Of a stretch of 64,000 nt of DNA, positions 3,516 to 35,486 are shown in pieces. The number at the start of each line of letters is the position of its first letter. The stretch's first letter is position 1. The notes below the pieces were generated by a model. The model made no database searches, was not told the origin of the DNA, and saw only the letters and a list, made by a program, of their open reading frames with translations. A program made the position numbers and the translations under genes. Source of the stretch: Octopus vulgaris (Eukaryota); the NCBI GenBank assembly GCA_951406725.2, contig OX597827.1, positions 66,712,001 to 66,776,000 on the forward strand, written 5' to 3'.

Positions 3516-4119
<604 letters not shown>

Positions 4120-4368
4120 TATATATATACATATATATATATAAGAAATATTGAATTTCTAAATCTCTCGTAGAGACATGTACGGTGGTGGGGCGATAGA
4201 ATGGTTGTATACTGTCAATCTAACAAGAACGTGACAATAGGGGGTACCTCACCGCTGTATAGCCCTAGGAAGCATCGAACGCCTCCTGATTGCTTTGACA
4301 CATTTTTCCCTGTGTCCTTATATACATATACGAAGGGGAGACAAACACCCCCGGCTGCCGAAGCTGCA

Positions 4369-4413
4369 TCTAGGGACACGTGTTTCAGGATCGTTGTCCT
4401 TCATCGGCCTAGA
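4369..4413 (-). ncRNA. Minimal type I hammerhead ribozyme motif
   Basis: Exact reverse complement of 4583-4627. Confidence 0.8.
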
Positions 4414-4582
4414 GTAGTAGACACCGGTCAGCTGGTGATATTTGTCTCGACTTCGTAATTGTATATATCTATAACTCAGTGAAGTCTATTCACTGATTAT
4501 CAAAATAAGAAATATTGAATTTCTAAATCTCTTGTAGAGACATGTACGGTGGTGTGGCGATAGAATGGTTGTATACTGCTAC

Positions 4583-4627
4583 TCTAGGCCGATGAAGGAC
4601 AACGATCCTGAAACACGTGTCCCTAGA
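4583..4627 (+). ncRNA. Minimal type I hammerhead ribozyme motif (core CCGAUGA, U4C)
   Basis: Helix I tctagg/cctaga; core CCGATGA; helix II agga-caacga-tcct; GAAAC-acgt-GTC with palindromic ACACGTGT helix III; predicted cut after C4621. Confidence 0.8.
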
Positions 4628-5401
4628 TGCAGCTTCGGCAGCCGGGGGTGTTTGTCTCCCCTTCGTATATGTATATAAGGACACAGGGAAAAATGTGTCA
4701 AAGCCATCAGGAGGCGTTCGATGCTTCCTGGGGCTATACAGCGGTGGTGTACCCCCTACTGTCACGTTCTTGTTAGATTGACAGTATACAACCATTATAT
4801 CTATATATATATAAAGAGAGAAGCAGAGATAGATAGATAGATAAATAGATAAATAGATAGATAGATGCATGTATGGCTACAGGACGTCATAGTAAACAAC
4901 ATGAAATACAAAGTACGAGACCATGGAATACGAACCTTTTTTTGGCGAACAGCGAAAGGCACAAATGGAAAGCAAGAAAAGCAACATAAAGAAGGATCCT
5001 ACAGTATACTCTCTATTTCCAGCAATTTGCGACAAAATATGCCTTCGACAAAGTAGTTGCTGCCGCAAAGTAAATTAAATAAGTTTTGGGGATTTGCGGA
5101 GGGTCAAAGTTAGTAACAGAAAACAGGACAGTGAAAACAAGCAGAAAGGGCAGCTAAGCCTAGACGAGGTGAGGTGGCAAACGCTGGAGGAACAAGCTTT
5201 TATATATATACATATGTATATACACATACACATATATATTTATATATATACACACACACATATAAAAATCCCTCCCTCTCTCTCTCACTATATATGTATA
5301 TATATATATATATACATATTTTTAGACATACATACATAGATATATATATACATACATAGATATATACATAGATATATATATGTATATATATATATATATA
5401 T

Positions 5402-5772
5402 GGATGGAAGCACTCCGTCGGTTACGACGACGAGGGTTCCGGTTGATCTGAATCAACGGAACAGCCTGCTCGGGTAATTAGCGTGTAAGTGGCTGAGCAC
5501 TCCACAGACACGTGTACCCTTAACGTAGTTCTCGGGGATATTCAGCGTGACACAGAGAGTGACAAGGCCGGCCCTTTGAAATACAGGTACAACAGAAACA
5601 GGAAGTAAGAGTGAGAGAAAGTTGTGGTGAAAGAGTACAGCAGGGATCACCACCATCCCCTACCGGAGGCTCGTGGAGCTTTAGGTGTTTTCGCTCTATA
5701 AACACTCACAATCGAAACCGCGATCCTATGACCGCGAGTCCGCTGCCCTAACCACTGGGCCATTGCGCCTCC

Positions 5773-5773
<1 letters not shown>
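5402..5773 (-). mobile_element. SINE family C1 (tRNA head; 3' region resembling a Nin/Deu-type domain)
   Basis: Minus strand begins tggaggcgcaatggcccagtggttagggcagcggactcg...gtttcgatt (A/B boxes); inserted in (TA)n. Domain name is recalled, not searched. Confidence 0.85.
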
Positions 5774-5849
<76 letters not shown>

Positions 5850-35292: not shown

Positions 35293-35394
35293 GGAGTAAA
35301 CACATAAATGTGAAACAAGGTGGAAAAAAGAGTACTCAAATACCAGTGGTAGAGTAATATGCTTTATTTAAAGCAGCAGAAAATTCAAAAAAAT

Positions 35395-35432
35395 CTGTTA
35401 CTCTGAGTTTCTCGTTGCCGTTCATCAGACAG
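35395..35432 (-). ncRNA. Minimal type I hammerhead ribozyme motif (CUGAUGA)
   Basis: Minus strand: ctgt-CTGATGA-acg(gcaa)cga-GAAAC-tcaga-GTA-acag. Confidence 0.8.
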
Positions 35433-35448
35433 TTTTTTTTAGAAAAAA

Positions 35449-35486
35449 CTGTCTGACGAACGGCAACGAGAAACTCAGAGTAACAG
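35449..35486 (+). ncRNA. Minimal type I hammerhead ribozyme motif (CUGACGA)
   Basis: ctgt-CTGACGA-acg(gcaa)cga-GAAAC-tcaga-GTA-acag; helix III ACTC/GAGT; predicted cut after A35482. Confidence 0.8.

What the first reader, a model, noticed from the sequence alone, without database searches (positions are those of the whole stretch)
4141..4796. Complete pLTR architecture: 364-bp unit, partial tandem, then an inverted copy with twin HHRs
Seen: direct repeat 4141-4214/4505-4578, inversion 4579-4796 of 4200-4417, and identical HHRs on opposite strands with a CCGAUGA core. The tandem-plus-inversion layout is typical of PLE insertions. The 364-nt period would be the monomer length released by successive cleavages of a tandem transcript (inference). 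The U4C core change is present in both copies.
Basis: partly seen in the sequence, partly recalled or inferred. Interest (0 to 1): 0.7.

Follow-up and report, generated by a model that had tools for sequence, protein, structure and literature searches.

The report
Penelope-pasted retrozyme with altered hammerhead core
This is one copy of an abundant 364-base non-coding jumping element that carries a predicted self-cutting RNA with an unusual core base shared by nearly all copies, and it sits in the genome as two back-to-back arms ending at two fixed points, a footprint likely left by a borrowed Penelope-type enzyme; the kind (retrozyme) is already known from other animals.

Summary
The unit is not the pLTR of a coding element but a whole ORF-less family: 1,869 exact hits of a 21-mer, 420 C4 versus 12 U4 cores. 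Arms end at two fixed sites 55 nt apart (107 of 121 arms; one of each in 31 of 36 two-arm loci), mostly in (AT)n, the Penelope 'tail' signature. Both arms and tandem units of a locus share one haplotype (3% vs 37% mismatch at polymorphic sites). Stems covary around the retained C4. Corrections: the twin ribozymes are on opposite strands, so this locus cannot release a monomer; no 5' ends pile up at the cut (3 of 42, 2.3 expected). No autonomous partner found. Side result: ORF1-only LINE cassettes occupy one fixed site of the unit, empty here. Verdict: non-LTR retrozyme with a Penelope footprint; new variant of a known kind; cleavage and circles untested.

The parts
4006..4140 (.). (AT)n-rich microsatellite, target at the 3' end of arm 1
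   Evidence: sequence; 60 of 99 family 3' ends are followed by (AT)4 or more
4141..4504 (-). Full 364-bp unit U (u1=4504, u364=4141), 3' part of arm 1; ORF-less
   Evidence: longest ATG-started frame in a tandem dimer 51 aa sense, 70 aa antisense; fold z=-4.5
4141..4195 (-). 55-nt 'tail' (u310-364) between the two fixed 3' end sites
   Evidence: 55 arms end near u309 and 52 near u364 of 121
4196..4205 (-). Second fixed end site (u300-309)
4319..4467 (-). Predicted long stem enclosing the ribozyme (u38-76 with u148-186)
   Evidence: self-match about 79%; MFE fold
4369..4413 (-). Type I hammerhead, C4 core (4407-4401), predicted cut 4375/4374
4426..4442 (-). u63-79: site occupied by ORF1-only LINE cassettes in other copies, empty here; inferred transcription start region
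   Evidence: start site is inference
4460..4469 (-). TATA-like decamer about 25 nt upstream of u63-70 (candidate promoter element)
   Evidence: sequence only; untested
4505..4578 (-). 5'-truncated upstream unit (u291-364), 5' part of arm 1; no ribozyme
4576..4578 (.). Head-to-head junction of the arms, 3-nt overlap
   Evidence: 28 of 51 family junctions overlap, 2 blunt, 21 with extra bases by BLAST ends
4579..4796 (+). Arm 2 (u88-305), tail-less, ends at the second fixed site
4583..4627 (+). Type I hammerhead, C4 core (4589-4595), predicted cut 4621/4622
4797..4813 (.). (AT)n target at the 3' end of arm 2
   Evidence: sequence

Best explanation
The stretch is one insertion of an ORF-less 364-bp hammerhead-bearing repeat family (a non-LTR retrozyme), laid down as two head-to-head arms that end at two fixed sites 55 nt apart and that were likely copied by a borrowed Penelope-type reverse transcriptase/endonuclease from one RNA haplotype, probably a circular monomer. 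Steps. Shown: family, architecture, two fixed ends, AT-rich targets, 9-13-bp duplications, shared haplotype, covarying ribozyme stems, fixed C4. Inferred from PAc biochemistry (PMC11167929): the enzyme nicks both strands of AT-rich DNA and each 3' end primes reverse transcription internally, one at u364, one at u309; each cDNA stops at a random point and the two are joined through short overlaps. Inferred, least certain (about 55%): loci with two same-strand ribozymes yield a 364-nt monomer by slow, dimer-type cleavage, the monomer is ligated, and the circle explains why arms longer than one unit keep arising although only short arrays were seen. The C4 core would slow cleavage and so spare the template. 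This locus itself is predicted to be a dead-end daughter.
For: Family size: 1,869 exact 21-mer hits, reversed control 0. Ends: of 121 arms in 71 chromosome-1 loci taken in list order, 55 end at u299-311, 52 at u355-364, 14 elsewhere; 31 of 36 loci with two arms have one of each. Targets: 60 of 99 ends followed by (AT)4+; 9 of 14 two-arm loci outside microsatellites have 9-13-bp duplications, 1 a 30-bp local repeat, 4 none by the script. Haplotype: 22 of 710 mismatches at 22 polymorphic sites in 90 inverted pairs and 13 of 423 in 57 tandem pairs, against 37% and 36% between loci. Ribozyme: 9 of 13 pairs with two-sided change over 15 distinct sequences of three sister families, 93.8% paired, slid controls 26-49%; older subfamilies change G-C to A-U in stem I and A-U to G-C in stem II while keeping C4. 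Core: 420 C4, 12 U4, 4 G5A; no variant at the C4 position at 5% or more in contigs of 4 of 4 runs from four coded organisms. Arms of up to 800 nt (19 of 121 span a unit boundary) run through the cut site uninterrupted. Literature: partial tandem + inverted copy + one-sided tail + microsatellite bias are PLE hallmarks (PMC8557442 passages); tail equals distance between two RT start sites, both strands cut and extended, dimer predicted (PMC11167929); mussel retrozymes are 350-390-bp hammerhead repeats expressed as circles (PMC7229834).
Against: No helper element sharing sequence with the unit was found: a young RT-GIY-YIG family had no BLAST match to U in 30 of 30 flanks, and only 2 of 149 U-bearing loci (some overlapping) had an RT/EN fragment within 600 bp (one query family only). 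The 55-nt tail is longer than the 30-40 bp described. U4C is reported to lower activity considerably in vitro (PMC3088659); stem III has about 0 pairing probability in the monomer. In PAc, ribozyme mutants did not affect insertion and unprocessed RNA was the main substrate; 8 of 9 Xenopus retrozyme dimers did not cleave in vitro. Shared haplotype does not separate a circle from a homogeneous linear tandem. Covariation rests on related sequences and a hand-set structure.
Confidence: 0.7

Rival explanations
1. Same element and same Penelope-type two-site priming, but the template is a linear, uncleaved read-through transcript of tandem loci (with template jumps); the C4 ribozyme is weak or only protein-assisted and no 364-nt monomer matters.
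For: No truncation excess at the cut; dimers and a trimer exist as sources; PAc uses unprocessed RNA and its ribozyme is dispensable in vitro; U4C is deleterious in vitro.
Against: 5' truncation only shortens arrays, yet multi-unit arms recur (19 of 121) while the longest array listed is three units (first 100 matches only); stems covary, so the fold is under selection.
Confidence: 0.2
2. The unit is the pLTR of a coding PLE, this locus being a severely 5'-truncated copy.
For: Architecture is the textbook PLE one. Some copies do flank an ORF as pLTR-ORF-pLTR, and one locus (L245) shows an inverted arm joined to a truncated cassette, so composites can move by the PLE route.
Against: The flanked ORF is a LINE-ORF1-like protein without RT; in 8 of 8 cassette loci whose other arm crosses u63 that arm continues in U, not in the cassette; of 14 matches where u79 is not followed by G, 8 lead to the cassette, 5 are point variants of U, 1 an internal deletion, 0 an RT ORF; upstream of u1 lies u364.
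Confidence: 0.06
3. LINE-type twin priming on one linear RNA, or DNA-level duplication plus fold-back, made the inversion.
For: At this locus alone arm 2 ends (u305) close to where arm 1 starts (u291), as L1 twin priming would give (mechanism recalled).
Against: Across loci the arm-2 end is fixed at about u309 whatever the arm-1 start (u1-u337), both ends abut target DNA, there is no poly(A), and arms overlap by hundreds of bases.
Confidence: 0.04

Closest known systems
Metazoan non-LTR retrozymes (PMC7229834: passages and section 14; bioRxiv 10.64898/2026.07.22.740005: parts 1-3 of 5)
   Same: ORF-less 170-400-nt unit (mussel 350-390 bp), one type I hammerhead per unit, low GC, self-paired fold, monomers to short tandems, duplications longer than 4 bp, PLE proposed as helper.
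   Different: Core is C4 family-wide (canonical descriptors would miss it); dispersed two-arm insertions with two fixed ends rather than arrays; helper link rests on the insertion footprint, not on sequence shared with a PLE; expression, cleavage and circles not shown.
EN+ Penelope-like elements and their pLTR/tail structure (PMC8557442 passages; PAc/Poseidon, PMC11167929 parts 1-2 of 4; PMC4209133 parts 1-2 of 4)
   Same: Partial tandem, inverted 5'-truncated copy, one-sided tail between two RT start sites, AT-rich/microsatellite targets, hammerhead with short palindromic stem III.
   Different: No RT or GIY-YIG ORF; tail 55 nt instead of 30-40; both end sites finish in T(C/T)TAT-like bases that overlap the (AT)n target, whereas PAc initiation was reported as non-homologous to the cut DNA.
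Non-autonomous Chlamys elements such as MRC1 (PMC8557442 passage)
   Same: Non-coding PLE-mobilised units with pLTRs and head-to-tail copies.
   Different: Those resemble autonomous families at the 3' end and the clade lacks canonical hammerheads; here no such parent was found.
U4C hammerhead variant of a viroid (PMC3088659, passage and section 8)
   Same: Same core change; reported as much slower in vitro yet compatible with infectivity.
   Different: There a rare variant; here fixed in hundreds of genomic copies and across diverged subfamilies.
HAL1 half-L1 elements (PMC5753468 passage), for the cassette found in other copies
   Same: ORF1-only, non-autonomous LINE derivative.
   Different: Sits at one fixed site of the retrozyme with a 12-17-nt repeat on both sides, stacks in tandem, and can be carried by the PLE route.

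Membership tests
Non-LTR retrozyme | 170-400-nt non-coding repeat unit | tested here: met
   364 bp; longest ATG frame 51 aa sense
Non-LTR retrozyme | One type I hammerhead per unit | tested here: met
   fold and covariation; core deviates at position 4
Non-LTR retrozyme | Tandem copies with two or more same-strand ribozymes | tested here: met
   met for the family (8 pairs in first 100 matches; trimer); not met for this locus
Non-LTR retrozyme | No LTR/PBS/PPT; duplications longer than 4 bp | tested here: met
   9-13-bp duplications in 9 of 14 informative loci; PBS/PPT not searched for separately
Non-LTR retrozyme | Self-cleavage | not testable with these tools
   needs in vitro assay
Non-LTR retrozyme | Abundant linear and circular monomer RNA | not testable with these tools
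   only contigs of runs not on record as RNA were served
Autonomous EN+ PLE | RT + GIY-YIG ORF between pLTRs | tested here: not met
   no RT/EN hit in the window or joined to U
PLE-mobilised element | Partial tandem, inverted 5'-truncated copy, one-sided tail from two start sites | tested here: met
PLE-mobilised element | AT-rich or microsatellite targets | tested here: met
   60 of 99 ends
PLE-mobilised element | Sequence shared with an autonomous helper | tested here: inconclusive
   one young RT-GIY-YIG family tested, no match; other PLE families not surveyed
Rfam hammerhead families | Score above threshold | tested here: not met
   models expect U4 and a longer stem III (recalled)

The most novel reading that the evidence does not exclude
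Retrozymes of this genome have been tuned to slow ribozymes: three sister families of about 360 nt each fixed a different non-canonical core (C4; U3.G8; U3-A8), which would let an uncut RNA circle be copied from both strands of one break by a dimeric Penelope enzyme, while ORF1-only half-LINEs home to the retrozyme's transcription start and are then carried along, a three-tier parasite chain.
Probability: 0.3. Interest if true: 0.7.

Novelty: new variant of a known kind. Interest (0 to 1): 0.42.

Why it matters
Which enzyme moves animal retrozymes, and whether PLE tandems come from circles, are stated as open in PMC7229834, PMC4209133 and the 2026 preprint. This family carries the PLE two-site footprint in an ORF-less unit with countable statistics (one arm at each site, one haplotype per locus), so both questions become testable with a 364-nt substrate. 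A family-wide U4C core shows that descriptor-based surveys miss whole retrozyme families and offers a natural test of whether slow cleavage is selected. The locus itself is ordinary, one of well over a thousand fragments, and unreviewed notes of this scan report the same pattern for sister families.

Tried and rejected
Rfam: no hammerhead hit. Expression: no RNA holder listed; contigs of 4 guessed-RNA runs cover the unit but cannot show level, strand, ends or circles; not used as evidence. Pile-up of 5' ends at the cut: not seen. Pile-up near u85-94 (7 of 121 starts, including this locus's neighbours in position) noticed, not tested. Helper search: RT fragments beside cassette arrays looked linked at first; inspection showed decayed or chimeric neighbours, and the young RT-GIY-YIG family has its own 3' region with no match to U. 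I first took that RT for Naiad, then read it as Neptune-type from its C-terminal GIY-YIG (Pfam E 3.7e-4, below cut-off) and Cys-rich linker; the clade label is recalled, no tree was built. CpG-decay test for the 12 U4 copies: 12 U4 vs 4 G5A, inconclusive on mechanism; both rare. Word-index protein search for the cassette ORF found nothing; the HMMER search gave 364 unnamed relatives. Cassette as the true parent element: disfavoured (see rival 2), not excluded. Lunse et al. (PMC5785218), which describes PLE hammerhead variants, is not held (title only) and may already list U4C in PLEs; no supplements were read, and those of PMC4209133 and PMC7229834 may hold cephalopod families. Not-in-print statements rest only; Repbase/Dfam could not be searched.

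Full report
Observation. The repeats are as described. 4141-4214 and 4505-4578 differ at 2 of 74 bases; 4579-4796 is the reverse complement of 4200-4417 with 5 differences in 218; a scan of both strands of the window returned two type I hammerhead motifs, at 4589 (+) and 4407 (-), identical and with the core CCGAUGA. I number the unit U on the minus strand, u1=4504 to u364=4141. Read that way the locus is arm 1 = u291-364 + u1-364, ending in (AT)n at 4141, and arm 2 = u88-305 on the plus strand, ending in (AT)n at about 4797-4800; the arms meet head to head at 4576-4579. Rfam misses the motif.

The family. The genome (2.8 Gb, 227 contigs; probably an octopod, an inference from size and from mollusc-dominated protein look-alikes) gave 1,838 candidates, 40 scored. 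Exact patterns: 1,869 hits for u285-305, 420 for the C4 core, 12 for U4, 4 for G5A, reversed controls 0. These are lower bounds on fragments, not insertion counts. Contigs of 4 of 4 runs from four coded organisms cover the ribozyme and show no other base at the C4 position at 5% or more.

Architecture across loci. I took the first 100 listed matches, all on contig 1, merged into 71 loci after dropping 8 overlapping duplicates; the sample needs an exact 21-mer, so very short or diverged copies are missed. Of 121 arms, 55 end at u299-311, 52 at u355-364 and 14 elsewhere; 40 of 71 loci have both orientations; of 36 loci with exactly two arms, 31 have one end at each site; 60 of 99 ends are followed by (AT)4 or more; 9 of 14 two-arm loci outside microsatellites carry 9-13-bp duplications (1 a 30-bp local repeat, 4 none by the script), against 2 of 11 one-arm loci. 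5' ends are scattered from u1 to u337. Of 42 passes through the predicted cut, 3 stop within 5 bases of it, 2.3 expected. Nineteen arms span a unit boundary, the longest 800 nt. At 22 polymorphic sites, arms of one locus differ in 22 of 710 comparisons (90 pairs) and tandem units in 13 of 423 (57 pairs), against 37% and 36% between loci; pairs within a locus are not independent. Junctions overlap in 28 of 51 cases, are blunt in 2 and have extra bases in 21, by BLAST ends.

Reading of the footprint. Partial tandem, inverted truncated copy, one-sided tail and microsatellite bias are the described PLE features (PMC8557442, passages). For the Poseidon element PAc the tail was shown to be the distance between two internal RT start sites, with both DNA strands cut and extended, AT-rich targets and a predicted dimer (PMC11167929, parts 1-2 of 4). 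The u364/u309 pair fits this directly. L1-type twin priming is rejected because the arm-2 end is fixed whatever arm 1 does.

The ribozyme. Over 15 distinct sequences (9 of the U lineage, 6 of two sister families) 9 of 13 pairs change on both sides, 93.8% of cells pair, slid controls give 26-49%; relatedness inflates the shuffle test. Older U subfamilies (77-88% identical) swap the core-proximal stem I pair and a stem II pair yet keep C4. Stems I and II are predicted in the monomer with probability 0.73-0.98, stem III about 0, the pattern of dimer-dependent animal hammerheads (PMC4209133, parts 1-2 of 4). U4C is known from a viroid, much slower in vitro but viable (PMC3088659); it was the only paper of the library with both terms. 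The sister families are also non-canonical: 17 of 19 matches read U3.G8 and 2 U3-A8; 98 of the first 100 of 224 read U3-A8, a known covariation. Against a needed cleavage: PAc ribozyme mutants insert normally and 8 of 9 Xenopus dimers did not cleave.

Can this locus release a monomer? No. Each strand has one ribozyme, the partial repeat lacks it, and a read-through RNA is predicted to pair the core with its antisense copy. Competent sources exist elsewhere: 8 same-strand pairs 362-369 apart among the first 100 matches and a trimer; no longer array appeared in those partial lists. Because truncation only shortens, recurring multi-unit arms of one haplotype favour a circle or template jumps, but a homogeneous linear multimer is not excluded.

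Is it a pLTR? No RT or endonuclease lies in the window. A young RT-GIY-YIG family shares no sequence with U in 30 of 30 flanks and 7 longer loci, and 2 of 149 U loci have an RT/EN fragment within 600 bp. What does interrupt U in some copies is a 1.7-kb cassette with a 450-480-aa frame, RRM/CCHC-like (ESM Atlas 0.92 to CCHC and ZCCHC3-like clusters; Pfam zf-CCHC E 0.0085), 33% identical over 93 aa to the ORF1 of an endonuclease-RT LINE seen at L237. It lies between two copies of u63-72/79, one to three in tandem, at the same offset before the ribozyme in both sister families although the repeated bases differ, and below TATA boxes at unrelated sites. In 8 of 8 cassette loci whose other arm crosses u63, that arm continues in U, so the cassette mostly arrived later; L245, where an inverted arm joins a truncated cassette, shows that composites can also move by the PLE route. 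This resembles HAL1 (PMC5753468 passage) and suggests, as inference only, a transcription start near u63. The site is empty in the window (4426-4442).

Comparison and novelty. The element works like a PLE passenger and meets the sequence-level criteria of non-LTR retrozymes (PMC7229834; preprint 10.64898/2026.07.22.740005), which already propose PLE helpers; it fails membership as an autonomous PLE. In the searches listed I found no description of this family, of a genome-wide C4 core, or of the two-site footprint in a retrozyme; the Lunse paper, supplements and repeat databases were not available or not read. Unreviewed notes of this scan reach the same reading for sister units and for the cassettes; they are not independent evidence, were seen after my analysis, and show the pattern is common in this genome; sequence look-up for this unit returned none.

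Verdict. Observation confirmed; interpretation partly supported. A retrozyme copy with a Penelope footprint and a fixed U4C core: new variant of a known kind, interest 0.42; cleavage, circles and the helper are untested.

Noticed in passing
L112 (G000 C1:194340000-194349000), L229-L236, L242-L246, L138/L139: ORF1-only (RRM/CCHC-like) 1.7-kb cassettes at u63-79 of the unit, 1-3 in tandem; related cassettes below TATA boxes elsewhere with 15-20-bp repeats; 13,080 first-look candidates, 150 scored.
   Followed up: partly
L237:6096-6355 (turned), L241:8115-8396: Two sister hammerhead units of about 360 nt with U3.G8 and U3-A8 cores, same inverted-arm layout and same cassette offset.
   Followed up: partly
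L245:4173-5097: Inverted arm joined directly to a 5'-truncated cassette plus u63-309: a composite moved by the Penelope-type route.
   Followed up: partly
L192-L228: Very young RT-GIY-YIG PLE family (about 98% protein identity, frames up to 1,025 aa) with large inverted arms; my canonical-hammerhead scan found no motif in its copies.
   Followed up: partly
window:3609-3994: MITE-like element with 44-bp, 93% complementary ends and further inner inverted segments, just left of the target microsatellite.
   Followed up: no
window:31959-32230 (-): Fragment of large-subunit rRNA (73.7 bits), probably a 28S pseudogene piece.
   Followed up: no
window:24870-25030 and 35394-35485: Long near-perfect hairpins hitting miRNA models below gathering score; likely small inverted-repeat elements.
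   Followed up: no
window:3100-3480 and 5405-5775: Two short interspersed repeats also seen beside other loci; recalled as octopus SINEs.
   Followed up: no
family, u85-94: 7 of 121 arm starts fall at u85-94, at the 5' edge of stem I, as does arm 2 here (u88); a pyrimidine tract ending in AG lies there. Not tested for excess.
   Followed up: no
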